From a virus, in IMG/VR virus record IMGVR_UViG_3300005340_000003, positions 10,599 through 74,598 of that record: DNA of 64,000 nucleotides. One strand, written 5' to 3'. Within the stretch, counting starts at the first letter, position 1. Each line of letters begins with the position of its first letter. Made by a program: the position numbers and the translations under genes. Under the pieces are notes generated by a model. The model made no database searches and was not told the origin of the DNA. It was given only the letters and a program-made list of their open reading frames with translations. This document shows, one piece after another, positions 1,966 through 53,867 of this stretch.

Positions 1966-2264
1966 GAAGGCGGAATTTGTTCCACGAATTTCACGATCCG
2001 GGTATGATTACCCGGAAGAATGCAATCGTCATCGGAATAGACATGGCCATAATCGATTCCGGAACCTAGATATTCCTTCAAATACACAACCCGGGGCTCA
2101 GGTTTCACCCGATATCTTTCGGTCCCGAAGTTCCAACTCGGATCATTGTTCGAGACATCTTCCCAACCGTTTGAAGATGCAGACCAAAATTGAATTATCT
2201 TTCCGGCTCGATGCGCCCGAGCTAGTTCAATAATTTCGTCCGTAGGGATATTTCCGAGTCTCAT
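1962..2264 (-). CDS. Small phage protein, YR(I/V)KPEPR family paralog 1
   Basis: PSWNFGTERYRVKPEPR; ATG at 2264 overlaps the sigma gene stop. Confidence 0.65.
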   Translation of the reverse strand: MRLGNIPTDEIIELARAHRAGKIIQFWSASSNGWEDVSNNDPSWNFGTERYRVKPEPRVVYLKEYLGSGIDYGHVYSDDDCILPGNHTRIVKFVEQIPPS

Positions 2265-2893
2265 AACAGTTGATCTTTCTTTGGTTCGAGCACCACGCGC
2301 AATTTCTTCAACGCGCATGAGTGCAGATTTTGGATGTGTTGCCGGGAGTAGCCGATTCGTTCGCCGATTTCGCCGAAGGAAAATCCAGACTCATACCTGA
2401 GTATAAAAATGGCTCGCTCTCGGTCATTCAATACTCGAAATATAGCAGGTCGGAGACCGGCGAGCAACTCTTTAGTTTCGAGATTTGAGGTGTCGATTTC
2501 GCAGACTGTCGGCACCAAGGCGTTTCCGTGATCCGGATCAAGCTTTCCGGATTCACCTGGGGTAATGAAATCAATCGGGCAATGTTCCGCCTGCCGCACC
2601 ACTAATCGGCTTTTGAATTCCTTGCTGATTTGTCCTCTCAAATATTGTTTGCTAAAGGCGAAAAATGTTATCCCGTTCGATTTTCGCCGGCAATAGTTCT
2701 TCGCGGCCTGCCGCAACGCAATCCAACACATACTCGTCAACTCGCCGTCGTTCAAGCCGCCTCGGGAACAATGCCGAGCGTAAATGATCGCTTCCGACAT
2801 ATTCGCGAGAGCGAGTTTGTCGAGAGCGCCTTTCGTCCCCTTTCGAATCAGCTTGTGCTCTTCGTCGAGGGTTATTGTTTGTGAAATCCTCAT
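2261..2893 (-). CDS. Phage-encoded sigma-70-family RNA polymerase sigma factor
   Basis: Region 2-like segment (LALANMSEAIIYAR...ALRQAAKNY...ITFFAFSKQYLRGQI) and region 4 HTH (LNDRERAIFILRYESGFSFGEIGERIGYSRQHIQNLHSCALKKLR). Confidence 0.85.
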   Translation of the reverse strand: MRISQTITLDEEHKLIRKGTKGALDKLALANMSEAIIYARHCSRGGLNDGELTSMCWIALRQAAKNYCRRKSNGITFFAFSKQYLRGQISKEFKSRLVVRQAEHCPIDFITPGESGKLDPDHGNALVPTVCEIDTSNLETKELLAGLRPAIFRVLNDRERAIFILRYESGFSFGEIGERIGYSRQHIQNLHSCALKKLRVVLEPKKDQLL

Positions 2894-13462: not shown

Positions 13463-14731
13463 TTATTCTTTCGTTTTCTCCGCCTGCAAAAATACTGCTG
13501 GCGAGCCTCGTTCTACTACATTCGCGGCCTCCAGACAACTCTTGAATTCTTGGATCGCATGTTTTTTACTGCCGCGAGGTGCCTTCGCTCCGATTGAGTC
13601 CTCAATCGCGCCAATGCTCACGTCGAGCGCCTGGGCGTATTCTTCCTCCGTCAAATACCGCAATGCCTCGCGCTTGAATCCGGCCATATCGGTAACTGCG
13701 CGGCTTCCGTCCCGTTGTTGCAGGCGGTATCCTTCAGGAAGCGGAGCACCACGAAGAACCCTCTCCGCCGTAACCTTCCGGAACGCTTCCGACCAGACTT
13801 TCATTACCTGGGCGAGTTGCATCCCGAGACCGGTATTCGCCGGGTCTTGAACCATACTCGGAGTCACTGAAGCCGGGATTTTAAGTGGGGCGAATTTGTT
13901 TCCGACAGTGCAAGCGAATTTGGTAACAGCGGGACAGATGCCCGTATGTTTGCAAAAAAGACAGTTCGGAATAGTCGGATTTGCAGATGAAAAATCTGCT
14001 TTAGCCCGGGCCATTCTCGCCCGTTCAACGACAACCGAAACCCGAAGGAGTAGCGACAGAATTTCGGAACGGTGGAAAACGTGATCGTCAAGAAAACCGA
14101 TTGCTGGCTGCTTGATCCAGAAGCGAACCGATTCGAGCTTCGGAAATTTTTTGAATAGACCCAAAACATAAGCGATTGCCTGGAGGTTGTTTTTGACTTT
14201 CTCGACCGACCACACACCAAATTTCCAATCGAAGGCTTCACAGTAAGTGCCAGCATGAGAGAAAAACGCCCGGTCGAAATATCCTGCGGTCGTTGATTGA
14301 ATCTTCAAAAGAATCGAGCCGAGACCAACTTTGATTTCGTCTTCGAATTCCAGGTCGTCAATCGGGAGGTAAGTCTCGGTCAATTCGAGAATCTCCGGAT
14401 ACGATCTGTGATCCGGAAGTTCAGAAATCATCGCATGCGCCCGCGCATCGACCGCCAACTGTTTTCGCTCTTCGTAAAAATCCAGGCACTCAGCCGCCAT
14501 CAAAGCGTCATCATCGCTGAGGGACTCATCGTCCATTCTGTCCTCAGTAACCTTGTGCATTTTGGTGCCGGCAATGGCCCGAATATGGCTCTCGTCTCTT
14601 CCTTCATAGCACGGACAGGCTTCGAGACTTTGTAAGGTGGAGGGAGAGTAAGGATGGTGAACGCGATCCTCTTGCTTCGGTCGTTGTTCATTTATCAGAG
14701 TTTGTTCTTTCAACGCTTGTTCGAGATTCAT
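13463..14731 (-). CDS. PD-(D/E)xK Cas4-like exonuclease (DUF2800-like)
   Basis: HHPYSPS...ACP, GTKMH, GYFD, DWKFG, NLQAIAY, CLFC-x5-CP. Confidence 0.85.
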   Translation of the reverse strand: MNLEQALKEQTLINEQRPKQEDRVHHPYSPSTLQSLEACPCYEGRDESHIRAIAGTKMHKVTEDRMDDESLSDDDALMAAECLDFYEERKQLAVDARAHAMISELPDHRSYPEILELTETYLPIDDLEFEDEIKVGLGSILLKIQSTTAGYFDRAFFSHAGTYCEAFDWKFGVWSVEKVKNNLQAIAYVLGLFKKFPKLESVRFWIKQPAIGFLDDHVFHRSEILSLLLRVSVVVERARMARAKADFSSANPTIPNCLFCKHTGICPAVTKFACTVGNKFAPLKIPASVTPSMVQDPANTGLGMQLAQVMKVWSEAFRKVTAERVLRGAPLPEGYRLQQRDGSRAVTDMAGFKREALRYLTEEEYAQALDVSIGAIEDSIGAKAPRGSKKHAIQEFKSCLEAANVVERGSPAVFLQAEKTKE

Positions 14732-15327
14732 TGGCCTTTTCCTCCCTCGTCGCCGACGATGGTTTTCTTGAACATCACCCGGGCTGCGGTGTGCCAGATG
14801 ACGATCCCTTCGGGCTGCATGAATCCAGGAGACGCCACGCTACCTTTCTCCGCTAGTTCCTGAAGTGTCCAGGCAACATTACCGGTTGTGAAAAGTCCTC
14901 GATACAGTGTCGGAACTACAAGGCAACACTCGGGCGGCTTTTCCTTCCCATCCGGACCCCATCGGTCCACATTGAAAAGTGAAAAGTGTTTTTCCGTCAA
15001 ACCGTAGCGACGTTGAATTCCTCCGCCCCACCATTCGCCGAAGTGCCGTCCCTGTCCGAGTTTCACCAATTCTTCCGCGTTGGACTGCACCCATTTCGCG
15101 AATCCGTAATTATCGTTGTCCGGAGTGATCCAACGGGTGCGACTGCCTGCGGCAATCCAGGGACCGTTCGAACCGACGCGAACCAAAGGAATGTCATTTG
15201 GATTTGCCACCTCGTCGAGAACTTCAGTGATGAAAATCTGTGCGTTAGTGCCGTCGATCTTTTCGGTGATAACACACTCGCGGCTGAGACGCGCCATTTT
15301 CGGAAACGTTTCAAAGGTGCTATTCAT
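14728..15327 (-). CDS. RNA ligase (Rnl2-like nucleotidyltransferase domain)
   Basis: Motif I TEKIDGTNA, GSRTRW, GEWWG, FSLFNV, motif IV PEGIV, FKK. Confidence 0.88.
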   Translation of the reverse strand: MNSTFETFPKMARLSRECVITEKIDGTNAQIFITEVLDEVANPNDIPLVRVGSNGPWIAAGSRTRWITPDNDNYGFAKWVQSNAEELVKLGQGRHFGEWWGGGIQRRYGLTEKHFSLFNVDRWGPDGKEKPPECCLVVPTLYRGLFTTGNVAWTLQELAEKGSVASPGFMQPEGIVIWHTAARVMFKKTIVGDEGGKGQ

Positions 15328-32323: not shown

Positions 32324-32353
32324 TTGTCACTTCGACGCCCACGGATCACTTCT
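32324..32353 (+). promoter_or_regulatory. CACT-type promoter, leaderless
   Basis: TTGTCA-N17-CACTTCT-N5-ATG. Confidence 0.55.
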
Positions 32354-37223: not shown

Positions 37224-37262
37224 ACGACCACTGGAGGGCAAAAATCCAGTGGCCGTTTTTTT
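37224..37262 (+). terminator. Intrinsic terminator
   Basis: ACGACCACTGGA-loop-TCCAGTGGCCGT followed by a T-run. Confidence 0.75.
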
Positions 37263-37294
37263 GCGCTCGGAGCACTTCTTATTGCGGGCGGTAT

Positions 37295-37373
37295 TGCGGG
37301 CGGCAGGTCGTAATCTGAGCGTGCCTCATAAGCAACGCATTGAAGCGAGTTTAACTCTCGCGCTTCGCATCCA
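37295..37373 (+). tRNA. Atypical tRNA-Met/Ile2-like (CAT)
   Basis: Acceptor TGCGGGC/GCTTCGCA (bulged), anticodon arm GCGTGC-CTCATAA-GCAACGC, T arm GCGAG-TTTAACT-CTCGC, encoded CCA; D arm poorly formed. Confidence 0.6.
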
Positions 37374-37374
37374 T

Positions 37375-37450
37375 CGGAATGTAATGTCAGTAGCAGACGG
37401 CCCGGCTCGGAACCGGGAGGCCGCTGGTGCAACTCCAGCCATTCCGACCA
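37375..37450 (+). tRNA. tRNA-Pro(CGG)
   Basis: 76 nt; acceptor CGGAATG/CATTCCG plus ACCA; anticodon arm CCCGG-CTCGGAA-CCGGG; T arm GCTGG-TGCAACT-CCAGC with a non-canonical T loop. Confidence 0.88.
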
Positions 37451-37457
37451 ATTTTAT

Positions 37458-37622
37458 CGGGGGATAGTGTAAGTATGCCTGGATAGACATAAACGGGTTG
37501 GACGAAACTCCTGCTTCGGCGGGCATCAACCTCTGGCCCGGGAACGACGTGAAATCCCAGGAAAAGAAAGCACACCGGATGTGATTCCGGAAGTAGCGCA
37601 TCATTGCGTCTTCGCCCGACCA
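37458..37622 (+). ncRNA. tRNA-like RNA (His/GTG-like anticodon arm) with ~95-nt structured D-loop insertion
   Basis: CGGGGGA/TCGCCCG plus ACCA; T8A9; D stem GTGT/GCAC; CCGGA-TGTGAT-TCCGG; 5-nt variable region; GCGCA/TGCGT. Confidence 0.6.
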
Positions 37623-37629
37623 AATGTTA

Positions 37630-37748
37630 GCGGAGTGCGGCACCAACCAGGATAGGCCCTGGCCGTTGCAACGGGTTCCGGCCCGGTGGTCAAACGCCAT
37701 CGGGAAAATAGGGATGTGGCTCGGTTCCACGACCTCACTTCGCGACCA
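37630..37748 (+). ncRNA. CCA-terminated multi-hairpin RNA
   Basis: Terminal helix GCGGAGTG/CACTTCGC plus GACCA enclosing four hairpins. Confidence 0.5.
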
Positions 37749-37917
37749 ATTTTGAAACGAATCGTTTACACAAGAATTGATACTCGACCGACCGCACCCC
37801 CCGGTCAGGGTCAGGCGATCCGCGAATGGGACGACGCCTGGAGAGCGAAAGGTTTTCGGACAAAGATTCTGATTTCTCCGGACTCCGCGAAGCTCCTCGG
37901 GATTAAACCTAAGAACC

Positions 37918-39867
37918 ATGCTGACCGACCCCGCTGAAAAATTTCTCGCGCAGCAAGTCGCTCAGAAAGTTCACTCGGATAAAAAATTCGAGGCGGCTCA
38001 ACAGATTGACGATTACCTGAAGCTCAACCTCCACCTGGAGGACGACCCGAAGCAGTTCCTTCCGGTCCTGATGCACTACGTTCACTATCTCCTGAACGCA
38101 AACGCACCGGAAGCCGCCGCGCAGGTTCTCTGGACACCAAACCAATTCACGCCGGAGCCACAATTTACAAAAGACCTCTGGCAACTTTTCGACCGGTCCG
38201 CGCAGGGGCTGATTATGGGCGCGGCATCCTGCTCGAAGTCCTACGGAATGGGTGTAAGACTTTTTCTCGAATGGATTCGCGATCCGGAGTGGACGACCAT
38301 TCGAGTGCTCGGTCCGAGCGAGGCTCACCTGGAGCAGAATCTTTTTTCTCATCTTGTCGGATTGCACAAGTCAGCATCGCTGCCGATGCCCGGGGAAATC
38401 GGGGAACTTTTCATCGGCACCGACCGGAGAAATCAGTTGTCGAGCATCATGGGCGTAATTATTCCCGTTGGCCAAAAGAAGAAGGCCGGCAGGATTCAGG
38501 GTGTGAAGCGGAAGGGACGGATCACCCGTCATGAAGTCTTCGGAACTCAAAGCAGGCTTTTTATTTTTGTGGATGAAATTGAAAACGTCCCGGGCGGTCT
38601 CTGGTCCGACATCGACAACATTCTGTCGAACATCCAAGAGGAAGGCGAGACATCCGGATTCAAAATTTTCGGCGCGTTCAACCCAACGAATCAAACAGAC
38701 GAAGTGGGGAAACGAGTCGAGCCTCCTTTCGGTTGGGAAGGATTCGATGTCGAAAGCCATTACCAATGGAAATCGAAACGTGGGTGGGATGTTCTGCGTC
38801 TTGACGGGGAACGATCCGAGAATGTAGTTCAGAAAAAAGTAATCTACCCAGGACTGCAAACTTATTCCGGATTGGAGATTATCGCGAGGAATGCCGGTGG
38901 GAAATCCGCCGCAGGATATTTTTCTATGGGACGCGGTGCCTATCCGCCACAAGGCATCGAGCTTACCGTGATACCTCCGGGAATGTTAATGAAGTGGCGG
39001 GGAAAGTTCATTTGGTATGACGAACCTAAACCTGTTGGATCAGAAGATTTGGCTCTGGAGGGAGGAAACGCAGCAATATACACTCTCGGAAAATGGGGGA
39101 GAGCAACTGGTATTCTTTTTCCTCCAACCATTGAATACCCATCCGGTCGCAAGTTCATGTTTAAAGACCGCAATGGACACTCAGTCACTCGATACGGACT
39201 TCAGGCCGACCAGCAGTTCATCATTCCTAAAGGAGATACACGGGCAATGACTGACCGGACGATTGAAGTGAATCGTCGCGCGGGAGTGCGGGGGGAATTT
39301 TTCGCGTGTGATCGAACGGGCGCGGGTGCTGGAACAGCAGACCTTCTCCGGCATGAATGGAGTCCATCGCTTCATGATGTGAATTATTCTGAGGCGTGCA
39401 GCAAAGATAAAATCATGATGGAGGATTCGAAACCCTGCAACGAACAATTCGAACGAATGAATTCGGAACTCTGGTTTGCCCTCAAGTCCTGGGGCGAGTT
39501 TCAATATTTCCTCATCAACCCCGAACTGGATTTGACGAAGCTCACCGGACAACTCACTCAACGAAAATTTCGAATCGTTGGCGGGAAGACGCGAGTCGAG
39601 CCGAAGAAGGATTATGTATCGAGAGGCTTCGAATCTCCGGACGAAGCGGACAGCCTAACTCTTCTCGTTCACGCGGCACGTAAAGGTTCCGGTGTGACTC
39701 TCAGCATGTCCCTCGATAATGTCGGCGAACTGAATCCGAATTACGACGATTCGGATGGATGGCTCGACGAGATAACACTTTTGGGTGGGGCTCGGATCGA
39801 TGAGAGCAACCGCACGCAATTTCTCGATGACGGAATGAAGCCGGTTCACGAGGACGCAATTTTATGA
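37918..39867 (+). CDS. terL: Terminase large subunit
   Basis: Deviant Walker A GAASCSKS, Walker B LFIFVDE, AFNP, nuclease motifs EDLALEGG, DRTGAG, SPDEADS. Confidence 0.85.
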   Translation: MLTDPAEKFLAQQVAQKVHSDKKFEAAQQIDDYLKLNLHLEDDPKQFLPVLMHYVHYLLNANAPEAAAQVLWTPNQFTPEPQFTKDLWQLFDRSAQGLIMGAASCSKSYGMGVRLFLEWIRDPEWTTIRVLGPSEAHLEQNLFSHLVGLHKSASLPMPGEIGELFIGTDRRNQLSSIMGVIIPVGQKKKAGRIQGVKRKGRITRHEVFGTQSRLFIFVDEIENVPGGLWSDIDNILSNIQEEGETSGFKIFGAFNPTNQTDEVGKRVEPPFGWEGFDVESHYQWKSKRGWDVLRLDGERSENVVQKKVIYPGLQTYSGLEIIARNAGGKSAAGYFSMGRGAYPPQGIELTVIPPGMLMKWRGKFIWYDEPKPVGSEDLALEGGNAAIYTLGKWGRATGILFPPTIEYPSGRKFMFKDRNGHSVTRYGLQADQQFIIPKGDTRAMTDRTIEVNRRAGVRGEFFACDRTGAGAGTADLLRHEWSPSLHDVNYSEACSKDKIMMEDSKPCNEQFERMNSELWFALKSWGEFQYFLINPELDLTKLTGQLTQRKFRIVGGKTRVEPKKDYVSRGFESPDEADSLTLLVHAARKGSGVTLSMSLDNVGELNPNYDDSDGWLDEITLLGGARIDESNRTQFLDDGMKPVHEDAIL

Positions 39868-49482: not shown

Positions 49483-49512
49483 TTGACAGTCTTCTAAACT
49501 CGCGTCACTTCT
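49483..49512 (+). promoter_or_regulatory. CACT-type promoter for the major capsid gene
   Basis: TTGACA-N17-CACTTCT. Confidence 0.6.
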
Positions 49513-53133: not shown

Positions 53134-53867
53134 AGAAAATTCTCCAGGCGATACTCGTAGTTTTTCTGGCAACCGGATGCAGCAGTCTATTCCCCAAAAC
53201 CGTAGAATTCGGACAGGACAAAGTTGAAAAATTCCCAAGTCACCCAAAACAACAACTCGAAGCGGAGAGACAAGCTACTGCCCTCGCCGCAGAGAAGGCT
53301 CGCGAGGCTGAAACAATTGCAACCATCGATAACAGCACAGCATCCCAACCAGCCGGCGAAGCTGCCGACCTATCGGAATCTGTTGCGCGTTCATTGGGTC
53401 CACCTTCTGACCCGTGGTCTGGAGAGGTGAAAAAATTGACGGAAAGGCTCGACCGGCTCACTTCTAAATATAACGGCTTACTGGCCAACTTTCAGAAAGA
53501 CAACGACGAAAATGCGGGAAAGAAAATCGAGGGAACCGGATTTTTGCAAGTCCCATATTTTTTATGGCTAGGTATCGTGGTCGGCGTGGTTATGATTTTG
53601 TGGATTATCCTGAAAACAGTGGCAAATGTTGCGGCGGCAGCGAACCCGGGTGTCGCCGTTGGCCTTCGGGCAGCGCAAGTCGGAGGCCGAGTTTTGTCCC
53701 GGGGGTTTTCTCAAGTTTTGAAAGGCGGAGAAGCCTTCAAGGACTGGCTGAAAAAAGAAGTCCCCGACGAAGCATTGAAAACGAAAATACTCGAAGCGTT
53801 TAAACAACATCACACCCAGGCGCAGGATGAGGATGTTCAAAACTTGGTGAAAGACTTAACGAAATGA
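53130..53867 (+). CDS. Lipoprotein with internal TM helix (spanin-like?)
   Basis: MKKILQAILVVFLATGC lipobox, coiled region, TM YFLWLGIVVGVVMILWIIL. Confidence 0.55.
   Translation: MKKILQAILVVFLATGCSSLFPKTVEFGQDKVEKFPSHPKQQLEAERQATALAAEKAREAETIATIDNSTASQPAGEAADLSESVARSLGPPSDPWSGEVKKLTERLDRLTSKYNGLLANFQKDNDENAGKKIEGTGFLQVPYFLWLGIVVGVVMILWIILKTVANVAAAANPGVAVGLRAAQVGGRVLSRGFSQVLKGGEAFKDWLKKEVPDEALKTKILEAFKQHHTQAQDEDVQNLVKDLTK

What the first reader, a model, noticed from the sequence alone, without database searches (positions are those of the whole stretch)
37273..37748. Tandem array of four CCA-terminated RNAs grading from tRNA to tRNA-derived scaffolds
Seen: after a terminator and a CACTTCT promoter motif lie four back-to-back units separated by 1-7 nt. 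Each is closed by a terminal helix and ends in encoded CCA (GCATCCA, CCGACCA, CCGACCA, GCGACCA). They are a bulged CAT tRNA, tRNA-Pro(CGG), a 165-nt unit and a 119-nt unit. None has the canonical TTC T loop. Known: phage tRNA clusters are common, and RNase P plus 3' trimming mature RNAs with acceptor-like ends. Inference: the phage may use tRNA ends as processing or stability tags for novel RNAs, or as decoys for host anticodon nucleases or synthetases. The genome also encodes an RNA ligase and a phosphoesterase.
Basis: partly seen in the sequence, partly recalled or inferred. Interest (0 to 1): 0.9.

Follow-up and report, generated by a model that had tools for sequence, protein, structure and literature searches.

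The report
Phage array of tRNA-shaped RNAs
An uncultured soil phage carries, just ahead of its DNA-packaging genes, one working-looking proline tRNA plus three conserved tRNA-shaped RNAs that almost certainly cannot read codons; this kind of RNA has been known since phages T4 and T5, and its job is still unknown.

Summary
Four same-strand units lie back to back at 37295-37373, 37375-37450, 37458-37622 and 37630-37748. Spacers are 1, 7 and 7 nt, each unit is closed by a terminal helix, and each ends in an encoded CCA.

Only unit 2 is a recognisable tRNA: Rfam gives 50.5 bits, anticodon CGG (Pro). ARAGORN finds none. Units 1, 3 and 4 match no Rfam family.

Three close relatives (L003-L005) carry reshuffled versions of the array.
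- Unit 4 keeps its fold: 96% of cells paired, and 14 of 37 pairs changed on both sides.
- Unit 1: 11 of 23 pairs changed on both sides.
- Unit 3: 5 of 26 pairs.

So these are selected structured RNAs, not decayed tRNA genes. Unit 3 is a tRNA frame with an 84-nt hairpin in its D loop (37 nt in L005). Unit 4 has an acceptor-like stem, D- and T-like hairpins and a 5+9 bp arm where the anticodon arm should be.

A bipartite motif, TTGNC-N18-CACTTCT, recurs in the window and precedes the array. A small ORF and a terminase-like gene follow directly.

The closest known things are T4 rnaC/rnaD and T5 RNA1/RNA2, which are analogues, not homologues. This scan has found the same kind before on other DNA. 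Expression, processing and function remain untested.

The parts
37228..37262 (+). Terminator-like hairpin (8-bp stem, 9-nt loop) plus T7 run. It ends the upstream 74-aa gene.
   Evidence: Sequence. The hairpin and T run are identical except for one loop base in L004. L003 and L005 have a different hairpin sequence at the same place. The scanner did not list it; I infer this is because the loop is 9 nt.
37250..37279 (+). Promoter-like bipartite motif: TGGCCG, 17 nt, CACTTCT. It is probably read by the phage's own sigma factor.
   Evidence: TTGNC-N18-CACTTCT with up to 1 mismatch occurs 6 times in the window against 1.06 expected; 0 of 100 shuffles reach 6. Exact copies are at 32324, 49483 and 53436 (+). 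The same TGGCCG-N17-CACT(T/G)NT spacing is seen by eye in L003, L004 and L005. A sigma-70 region 4 protein is encoded at 2261-2893, minus strand. That it works as a promoter is inferred.
37280..37303 (+). 12-nt tandem duplication (TATTGCGGGCGG x2) covering the 5' end of unit 1.
   Evidence: Sequence. The first copy is absent from L004.
37295..37373 (+). Unit 1: a 79-nt tRNA-shaped RNA. It has a CUCAUAA loop (CAU) on a 6-bp stem with a bulged A, a 5-bp D hairpin with a 4-nt loop, a UUUAACU T loop, an acceptor stem with a bulged U, and ends U + CCA.
   Evidence: The MFE fold is a cloverleaf. No tRNA match by Rfam even at E<=10 on 85 nt, nor by ARAGORN. Homologues in L004, L003 and L005: 87 of 92 cells paired, 11 of 23 pairs changed on both sides, and the YUCAUAA loop is invariant.
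37375..37450 (+). Unit 2: tRNA-Pro(CGG), with C1-G72, A73 and an encoded CCA. Its elbow is unusual: D loop AGUAGCA without GG, T loop UGCAACU.
   Evidence: Rfam RF00005 gives 50.5 bits, E 1e-9. It is the only tRNA in the 74.6-kb genome. CCG makes up 49% of Pro codons. L004's orthologue (UGG) has the canonical loops AGCGGAA and UUCGAAU; L003's shares the odd elbow.
37458..37622 (+). Unit 3: a 165-nt tRNA-frame RNA. It has a 7-position acceptor stem with a G-G mismatch plus ACCA, a GUGU/(G)CAC D stem, a 5-bp arm with the 6-nt loop UGUGAU, and a 5-bp T-position hairpin with a 4-nt loop.
   Evidence: Fold. No Rfam match. Orthologue at L005 3710-3825 (116 nt): the cores are 77% identical (z about 9-10), 48 of 52 cells are paired, and 5 of 26 pairs changed on both sides. 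Relaxed ARAGORN reads it as 'tRNA-His gtg with a 95-nt intron', but it makes spurious calls at the same settings.
37478..37561 (+). Unit 3 insert: an 84-nt hairpin domain set in the D loop. The base helix is CCUGG/CCAGG, and the conserved internal-loop strands are AUAGAC and UGAAAUC.
   Evidence: L005 has the same base helix, with 2 of 5 pairs changed on both sides, and identical loop strands, but an insert of only 37 nt. The window-specific extra of about 48 nt has no other copy in the genome or the loci.
37630..37748 (+). Unit 4: a 119-nt multi-branch RNA. It has an 8+2 bp terminal stem with a GACCA tail, a D-like hairpin (loop AUAGGC), a small hairpin, a long 5+9 bp arm, and a T-like hairpin (loop CUCGGUU).
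   Evidence: Fold. Covariance models R1 and R2 find only window, L004 3711-3828 and L005 3605-3705. 96.2% of cells are paired and 14 of 37 pairs changed on both sides. Slid controls give 37-44% paired and 0-2 such pairs. No Rfam match.
37752..37937 (+). Small conserved ORF (61 aa, TTG start 3 nt after unit 4's CCA) that overlaps the next gene's start. It is not part of the RNA array.
   Evidence: The reading frame is conserved in L004 and L005, and third-position changes are seen by eye in the DNA. It is homologous to the roughly 100-aa ORF upstream of the same gene in L006 (E 1e-8). Translation.
37918..39867 (+). 649-aa ORF, probably the large terminase subunit. It is the first large gene of the late arm, downstream of the array.
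   Evidence: No Pfam or PHROG match. The Atlas structure search gives rows with Terminase_6N (TM 0.58-0.77). More than 700 homologues, mostly from uncultured phages.

Best explanation
This is a small RNA-gene cluster at the head of the phage's packaging operon.

Transcription (inferred). It probably starts at a phage-specific promoter (TGGCCG-N17-CACTTCT) a few bases before unit 1. It then runs through four RNA units into a small ORF and the terminase-like gene.

The units.
- Unit 2 is a decoding tRNA-Pro(CGG) for the phage's commonest proline codon.
- Units 1, 3 and 4 are tRNA-derived structured RNAs kept by selection for their fold.
- Units 3 and 4 cannot decode. Unit 3 has a 6-nt loop, a 4-nt loop where the T loop should be, and an 84-nt domain in its D loop. 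Unit 4 has a 14-bp interrupted arm with a non-conserved tip in place of the anticodon arm.
- Unit 1 keeps a perfect CAU anticodon loop on an aberrant body. It may or may not decode.

Maturation (inferred from how bacterial polycistronic tRNA precursors are matured). The acceptor-like helix plus the encoded RCCA makes each unit a substrate for host RNase P at its 5' end. The short AU-rich spacers are cut by RNase E and trimmed back to CCA by exonucleases. This would release four stable RNAs and leave the downstream mRNA with almost no leader.

Function (weakest step). Units 3 and 4 are the same kind of thing as T4 rnaC/rnaD and T5 RNA1/RNA2, meaning tRNA-shaped stable RNAs that use the tRNA frame for processing and stability. 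Their conserved cores most likely bind a tRNA-recognising host or phage factor.
For: Shown here:
- The four units, their helices and their CCA ends.
- Unit 2 is the only Rfam tRNA in the window and in the whole genome. CCG is 49% of Pro codons.
- Units 1, 3 and 4 match no Rfam family.
- Structure is conserved with compensatory change. Unit 4: 96% of cells paired, 14 of 37 pairs changed on both sides, against 0-2 in slid controls. Unit 1: 11 of 23 pairs over four genomes. Unit 3: 5 of 26 pairs over two genomes.
- The conserved parts are the cores and junctions (AUAGAC/UGAAAUC in unit 3; ACCAACC, AUAGGC and UUGCAA in unit 4). The tips vary: CAAAC, CAGAC or CUGCAAA in unit 4, and a 37-nt versus 84-nt insert in unit 3.
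- L005's unit 4 keeps a canonical T loop. Window and L004 both have C54 with G58, a double change at the two positions that pair in a T loop.
- The bipartite CACTTCT motif is enriched: 6 observed against 1.06 expected.
- No terminator-like site was found on the + strand between unit 4 and the small ORF.
- The T4 and T5 records annotate stable RNAs of 119-144 nt, two of them called tRNA-like, lying among or next to the tRNA genes.
Against: - No expression or end-mapping data. No listed sequencing run that holds this DNA is RNA.
- Only 2-4 homologues per unit. The unit 4 alignment was fitted to the model, and the unit 1 and unit 3 pair tables were set by hand.
- L005's unit 4 lacks an encoded CCA (its tail is CCGAU). 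L005's unit 3 keeps only 4 acceptor pairs.
- Unit 4's terminal stack is about 16 layers with a 5-nt tail. Unit 3 has 2 unpaired nt between its acceptor stem and the T-position hairpin. Neither fits the 12-bp acceptor-plus-T ruler of RNase P or the CCA-adding enzyme.
- The T loops of units 1-3 lack the usual elbow contacts.
- The -35-like half of the promoter-like motif at the array is the weakest copy (TGG, not TTG).
- The host is unknown.
- No partner protein was identified: no Ro, Pth or RtcB gene.
Confidence: 0.62

Rival explanations
1. The units act mainly in cis. They are tRNA-like punctuation marks, like plant mitochondrial t-elements, whose cleavage by RNase P and 3' processing enzymes sets the 5' end, stability or translation of the small-ORF/terminase mRNA. 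The released RNAs are by-products.
For: - In all four genomes the last unit's CCA lies 3-10 nt from the next start codon. This holds for window and L004 (unit 4), L005 (unit 3) and L003 (tRNA-Pro).
- No terminator-like site was found on the + strand between the array and the ORFs.
- Few genes have a Shine-Dalgarno-like motif: 9 of 39.
- t-elements are documented in PMC1920247 (listed; I did not read it in depth).
Against: - One unit would be enough for punctuation. Four units with conserved internal cores, and 84-nt and 14-bp elaborations kept by compensatory change, suggest that the RNAs themselves matter.
- The order and number of units change between relatives, while each unit's own fold is kept.
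Confidence: 0.2
2. Units 1, 3 and 4 are decaying tRNA pseudogenes that have picked up insertions and have no function.
For: - They fail ARAGORN and the Rfam tRNA model.
- Their T loops are degenerate.
- Array content is unstable between close relatives.
- L005's unit 3 has lost part of its acceptor stem, and L005's unit 4 has lost its CCA.
Against: - Helices are kept through many two-sided changes: unit 4 has 14 of 37 pairs, unit 1 has 11 of 23, and P4 and P5 of unit 3 together have 5 of 10.
- 92-96% of cells are paired, against about 40% in slid controls.
- Loop and junction motifs are invariant while the stems change.
Confidence: 0.07
3. Units 3 and 4 are interrupted tRNA genes (for example His-GUG). 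Their inserts are removed by splicing, perhaps with help from the phage RNA-ligase-family protein, to give decoding tRNAs.
For: - Relaxed ARAGORN reads unit 3 as tRNA-His(gtg) with a 95-nt intron.
- The genome encodes an RNA_ligase-family protein.
Against: - With the insert removed, unit 3 would still have a 6-nt loop and a 4-nt loop in place of the T loop.
- The loop differs in every relative: UGUGAU in the window, AAUCGA in L005.
- What would remain of unit 4's arm after removal is not conserved between window, L004 and L005.
- I saw no bulge-helix-bulge motif on inspecting the folds, and the inserts are far shorter than known bacterial group I introns.
- The same ARAGORN settings give clearly spurious calls.
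- The ligase gene lies in the replication module, 22 kb away.
Confidence: 0.03
4. The stretch is protein-coding on the minus strand (197-aa ORF, 37326-37919).
For: An open frame of 197 aa exists.
Against: - No Pfam or PHROG match.
- The frame is not conserved. L004, L005 and L003 have different, shorter minus-strand ORFs, and whole units are inserted or deleted.
- The substitution pattern preserves RNA helices.
Confidence: 0.01

Closest known systems
Phage T4 species 1 and species 2 RNAs (rnaC, 139 nt; rnaD, 119 nt; AF158101 70908-71171)
   Same: - They are small stable RNAs encoded back to back at the end of a phage tRNA cluster, on the same strand, with gaps of 1-6 nt.
- They are larger than a tRNA.
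- rnaC has an acceptor-like terminal helix and a T arm, plus extra hairpins, much like unit 4.
- From my own knowledge, their function has been unknown for about 50 years.
   Different: - No sequence or covariance-model similarity, so they are analogues, not homologues.
- rnaC has a canonical UUCGAAU T loop, and the DNA after its annotated end reads CAA, not CCA.
- Neither T4 RNA has an evident D-loop insertion like unit 3.
- The T4 RNAs are known to accumulate in infected cells. These are only predicted.
Phage T5 RNA1 (144 nt) and RNA2 (125 nt), annotated 'tRNA-like stable RNA with unknown functions' (AY543070)
   Same: They are tRNA-like stable RNAs scattered through a phage tRNA cluster, of similar size, with unknown function.
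   Different: No covariance-model similarity to unit 4. T5 carries many canonical tRNAs, whereas this phage has one.
Canonical bacterial and phage tRNA (Rfam RF00005)
   Same: Unit 2 is a member (50.5 bits). All units keep a terminal helix with a 3' CCA. Unit 1 folds as a cloverleaf with a CAU loop. Unit 4 keeps D-like (GG) and T-like (U55, C56) loops.
   Different: Units 1, 3 and 4 score below any reportable threshold. Units 3 and 4 have no usable anticodon loop. No unit in the window has a canonical T loop.
YrlA / bacterial Y RNAs with a tRNA-like domain
   Same: They are non-decoding RNAs that mimic part of a tRNA.
   Different: No Rfam family, Y RNAs included, matches here. The phage has no Ro/TROVE gene. 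From my own knowledge, in YrlA the 5'/3' helix is the Ro-binding stem, not an acceptor stem with CCA.
tmRNA (Rfam RF00023)
   Same: It has a tRNA-like acceptor/T domain with a non-tRNA body. A relative (L020) carries a tmRNA gene about 0.9 kb upstream of the same terminase-like gene (78.7 bits).
   Different: No tmRNA match in the window by Rfam or ARAGORN. The units are far shorter than the 374-position Rfam model, and neither tool reports a tag reading frame.
Engineered 'tRNA scaffold' for RNA expression (Ponchon and Dardel 2007; from my own knowledge, not checked here)
   Same: A foreign RNA module replaces or extends the anticodon arm of a tRNA, so that the chimera is processed and stabilised like a tRNA. 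Unit 4's design is what this looks like.
   Different: That design is man-made. Here the arrangement is natural, and in unit 3 the insert sits in the D loop.

Membership tests
tRNA (Rfam RF00005) | Covariance-model score at or above the gathering score (29 bits): unit 2 | tested here: met
   50.5 bits, model positions 1-71, at 37375-37447.
tRNA (Rfam RF00005) | Covariance-model score at or above the gathering score: units 1, 3 and 4 | tested here: not met
   No tRNA match even at E<=10 on stretches of 85 and 296 nt. ARAGORN finds nothing at default, ps90 or ps80.
tRNA (Rfam RF00005) | 7-nt anticodon loop with U33 and a purine at 37, on a 5-bp stem | tested here: not met
   Units 3 and 4 fail. 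Unit 3 has the 6-nt loop UGUGAU. Unit 4 has a 5+9 bp arm tipped by CAAAC. The tips differ in relatives. Unit 2 passes. Unit 1 has the loop, but on a 6-bp stem with a bulge.
tRNA (Rfam RF00005) | T loop U54-U55-C56-R57-A58, with G18 and G19 in the D loop | tested here: not met
   The window's T loops are UUUAACU, UGCAACU, UCAU (4 nt) and CUCGGUU. Only unit 4 keeps U55, C56 and a D-like GG.
tRNA (Rfam RF00005) | 7-bp acceptor stem + discriminator + CCA | tested here: inconclusive
   Unit 2 fits exactly. Unit 1 fits with a bulged U. Unit 3 fits with a G-G mismatch. Unit 4 has 8 bp and a 5-nt tail, GACCA.
Phage tRNA-like stable RNAs (T4 rnaC/rnaD, T5 RNA1/RNA2): a kind, not a homologous family | Encoded inside or at the end of the phage tRNA cluster, same strand, back to back | tested here: met
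   Window spacers are 1-7 nt. T4 gaps are 1-6 nt. T5.
Phage tRNA-like stable RNAs (T4 rnaC/rnaD, T5 RNA1/RNA2) | Longer than a tRNA (about 105-170 nt), with tRNA-like end features around a non-tRNA body | tested here: met
   Units 3 (165 nt) and 4 (119 nt). The rnaC fold.
Phage tRNA-like stable RNAs (T4 rnaC/rnaD, T5 RNA1/RNA2) | Accumulates as a discrete stable RNA in infected cells, matured by RNase P | not testable with these tools
   No RNA run is on record for this DNA. The host is unknown.
Phage tRNA-like stable RNAs (T4 rnaC/rnaD, T5 RNA1/RNA2) | Sequence or structure homology to the T4 or T5 RNAs | tested here: not met
   Model R1 finds nothing in the T4 and T5 loci at E<=10. blastn against 50,697 phage records finds only a tRNA-Pro match.
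YrlA / Y RNA | Match to the Rfam Y-RNA families, and a linked Ro (TROVE) gene | tested here: not met
   No match to any Rfam family beyond tRNA. No TROVE match in the genome.
tmRNA (RF00023) | Covariance-model match; tRNA-like domain plus a tag reading frame | tested here: not met
   No match by Rfam or ARAGORN in the window. The same search does find a tmRNA in relative L020.

The most novel reading that the evidence does not exclude
The phage uses the tRNA frame as a natural expression scaffold. The acceptor helix and CCA recruit the host's tRNA-maturing enzymes and give stability. The grafted parts (the D-loop domain of unit 3, with its conserved AUAGAC/UGAAAUC internal loop, and the body of unit 4) are the working modules. 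They could be sponges or decoys for a tRNA-recognising host factor such as a tRNA-targeting defence nuclease or a CCA-end-modifying toxin. On this reading the altered T loops would be adaptations that keep the RNAs out of translation, or out of reach of such factors.
Probability: 0.25. Interest if true: 0.8.

Novelty: new member of a known kind. Interest (0 to 1): 0.5.

Why it matters
Non-decoding tRNA-shaped RNAs have been known in phage tRNA clusters since T4 and T5, and no function has been assigned to them. This locus adds three new families that are in no catalogue.

It also shows how such RNAs change between close relatives:
- The same frame carries a 37-nt or an 84-nt D-loop insert.
- An anticodon arm is stretched to 14 bp while the tRNA-like ends stay.
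- Units are reshuffled within the array.

That pattern argues that the tRNA frame is reused as a carrier, not merely decaying. This bears on current work on phage tRNAs as counter-defence (PMC10264068, PMC11464382, PMC11555353; I saw titles and abstracts only).

Its immediate value is limited. The phage is uncultured, its host is unknown, and there are no RNA data.

Tried and rejected
The closer relatives seen as proteins P0002-P0015 (67-84% identity) could therefore not be fetched. This is the main limit on the covariation tests.
- The metagenome scan returned only the contigs already held.
- Pattern scans of viral contigs for units 2, 3 and 4 found only the L003, L004 and L005 contigs. One of my patterns was mis-specified and wasted a scan.
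- The genome-contig hit, in an Alistipes MAG, is a chance match.
- No RNA holder is listed among the sequencing runs.
- The laid contigs were identical to the window or were fragments. No run gave a part of the stretch without cover that a contig joins across.
- CACTTCT alone, with flanks, is not enriched. Only the bipartite form is.
- I first read the conserved GTTTACACA..GATAC stretch as a promoter. It is coding sequence of the small ORF.
- I first took the 72/73-nt units of L004 and L003 as short orthologues of unit 3. They are no more similar to it than the tRNA-Pro units are (z about 4-5), so I dropped that claim.
- No Pth, Ro or RtcB gene.
- No antisense target or repeat of units 1, 3 and 4 or of the unit 3 insert elsewhere in the genome.
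Full report
**Context.** The window is bases 10599-74598 of a 74.6-kb IMG/VR virus record with direct terminal repeats. The DNA occurs in many rhizosphere and soil metagenomes. The left arm, on the minus strand, encodes:
- a family A DNA polymerase, helicases, a PD-(D/E)XK nuclease and a dCTP deaminase;
- a sigma-70 region 4 protein and a 199-aa RNA_ligase-family protein.

The right arm, on the plus strand, holds the late genes. The finding lies in a 558-nt gap. On one side is a conserved 74-aa ORF, itself preceded by a 273-aa serine recombinase. On the other side is a small ORF followed by a 649-aa protein whose Atlas model resembles large terminases.

**Observation.**
- A hairpin at 37228-37252 is followed by T7.
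- CACTTCT lies at 37273-37279.
- Four units follow at 37295-37373, 37375-37450, 37458-37622 and 37630-37748. Spacers are 1, 7 and 7 nt, and each unit ends in CCA.
- Single-sequence folds close each unit with a terminal helix. Their z-scores against shuffles are unremarkable (0.1 to -1.8), so the case for structure rests on the comparative data below.
- ARAGORN finds no tRNA in the whole window, nor in this stretch at thresholds relaxed to ps80.
- Rfam finds only unit 2: tRNA, 50.5 bits, anticodon CGG.
- Units 1, 3 and 4 match nothing in Rfam even at E<=10 on stretches of 85-296 nt.
- None of the four has a canonical T loop.

**Relatives.** The terminase-like protein has more than 700 homologues. 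21 IMG/VR loci were fetched. Three are close: L005 at 85% amino-acid identity, L003 at 82% and L004 at 80%. All three carry reshuffled arrays at the same place.
- L004: unit 1, tRNA-Ala, tRNA-Pro(UGG), a 72-nt tRNA-like unit, unit 4.
- L003: unit 1, a 73-nt unit, tRNA-Pro(UGG).
- L005: unit 1, unit 4, unit 3.

12 of the 13 units end in CCA. More distant relatives have an ordinary tRNA-Met, nothing, or (L020) a tmRNA plus two tRNAs upstream of the same gene.

**Unit 4.** A covariance model built from window and L004 also finds L005 3605-3705 (E 5e-4; E 1e-16 with the three-sequence model), and nothing else in 228 kb of relatives. On the three sequences:
- 96.2% of cells are paired.
- 14 of 37 pairs changed on both sides.
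- No shuffle of 500 reaches the observed paired share, two-sided-change counts or covariation score.
- Slid controls give 37-44% paired and 0-2 such pairs.

The alignment was fitted to the model, which favours it. Even so, the terminal helix alone has 5 of 10 two-sided changes.

The L005 member is the most tRNA-like. It has a UUCGAUU T loop and a 7-nt CUGCAAA loop on a 5+8 bp arm, but no encoded CCA. Window and L004 both have C54 with G58 in the T loop, and they keep U55, C56 and a D-like loop with GG. The tip of the long arm is not conserved, so it is not an anticodon.

**Unit 3.** L005 3710-3825 (116 nt) is the orthologue. The cores are 77% identical. It has the same D stem, the same 5-bp arm and a T-position hairpin with 3 of 5 pairs changed on both sides. 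The insert's base helix has 2 of 5 pairs changed, and it is flanked by identical AUAGAC and UGAAAUC strands. The insert is 37 nt in L005 and 84 nt in the window.

The core is about as similar to the tRNA-Pro units as to the short 72/73-nt units (z 4-5). I therefore call it tRNA-derived and Pro-like (C1-G72, A73), but I claim no orthology to the short units. Relaxed ARAGORN reads it as 'tRNA-His with a 95-nt intron'. That setting also gives spurious calls, and the loop is only 6 nt and differs in L005.

**Unit 1.** Four genomes give 87 of 92 cells paired and 11 of 23 pairs changed on both sides. The YUCAUAA loop is invariant. The anticodon stem always carries an extra nucleotide on its 3' strand, and the D hairpin has a loop of only 3-4 nt. 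It is selected, but whether it decodes is open.

**Unit 2.** It has proline identity features (C1-G72, A73, G35, G36; from my own knowledge of ProRS). CCG is 49% of the phage's proline codons. Its elbow differs from L004's canonical orthologue in both the D loop and the T loop, and L003 shares this odd form.

**Transcription.** TTGNC-N18-CACTTCT with up to 1 mismatch occurs 6 times, against 1.06 expected. Exact copies lie on the plus strand at 32324, 49483 and 53436. The copy at 37250 has TGG for TTG, and its spacing is kept in the three relatives. With a phage sigma factor on board, a phage-specific promoter is a reasonable inference.

No terminator-like site was found on the plus strand after unit 4. 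A conserved 61-aa ORF starts 3 nt after its CCA. So the array is probably the leader of the packaging operon.

**Mechanism.** The folds, their conservation and the CCA ends are shown. Processing by RNase P, RNase E and exonucleases is inferred from how bacterial polycistronic tRNA precursors mature. It is made less certain by unit 4's roughly 16-layer stack and 5-nt tail, and by the odd elbows.

Function is unknown. I favour tRNA-shaped stable RNAs that bind some tRNA-recognising factor. Cis-acting punctuation of the late mRNA is the main rival, and the two are not exclusive. Pseudogenes, spliced tRNAs and a minus-strand ORF are rejected for the reasons given under the rival explanations.

**Known things.** T4 rnaC and rnaD lie back to back after tRNA-Arg. 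T5 RNA1 and RNA2 are annotated 'tRNA-like stable RNA with unknown functions'. Model R1 finds no homology to any of them. There is no Y-RNA, Ro, Pth, RtcB or tmRNA signal in this genome.

Earlier notes of this scan describe the same kind of RNA in at least eight other phage genomes. This is therefore a new member of a known but unexplained kind.

Noticed in passing
window 37752-37937 (+): A conserved 61-aa ORF with a TTG start 3 nt after unit 4's CCA and no Shine-Dalgarno motif. It overlaps the terminase-like gene's start by 20 nt. It is homologous to the roughly 100-aa ORF upstream of that gene in more distant relatives.
   Followed up: partly
window 32324-32353, 49483-49512, 53436-53465 and 37250-37279 (+): A bipartite motif, TTGNC-N18-CACTTCT, enriched about six-fold over shuffles. 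It may be a promoter class for the phage's own sigma factor (ORF 2261-2893, minus strand).
   Followed up: partly
window 37280-37303: A perfect 12-nt tandem duplication (TATTGCGGGCGG x2) over the 5' acceptor strand of unit 1. The first copy is absent from L004.
   Followed up: no
L020 1038-1423 (+): A relative (59% identical terminase-like gene) carries a tmRNA gene (Rfam 78.7 bits, missed by ARAGORN) and two tRNAs upstream of the same gene.
   Followed up: no
window 37918-39867 (+): The 649-aa ORF has no Pfam or PHROG match, but its Atlas model aligns to clusters carrying Terminase_6N (TM 0.58-0.77). It is probably a divergent large terminase.
   Followed up: partly
window 14728-15327 (-); genome 10452-11642 (-): A 199-aa RNA_ligase-family (PF09414) protein sits in the replication module.
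   Followed up: partly
whole genome (39 larger ORFs): Only 9 of 39 genes have a Shine-Dalgarno-like motif upstream, and many have A-rich leaders. This may point to a host that makes little use of Shine-Dalgarno motifs, such as Bacteroidota.
   Followed up: no
run X9, contigs laid at 37373-37501: Loose ends show further array variants in rhizosphere samples. One has an L005-type unit 4 end directly followed by a unit 3 start. Another has a tRNA-Pro variant flanked by different units.
   Followed up: no
L006 3240-3696 (+): An ORF inserted between tRNA-Met and the small ORF looks like an HNH/AP2-type homing endonuclease by eye. I did not test this.
   Followed up: no
genome 1004-8869 (+), outside the window: A 2621-aa ORF, not examined.
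   Followed up: no
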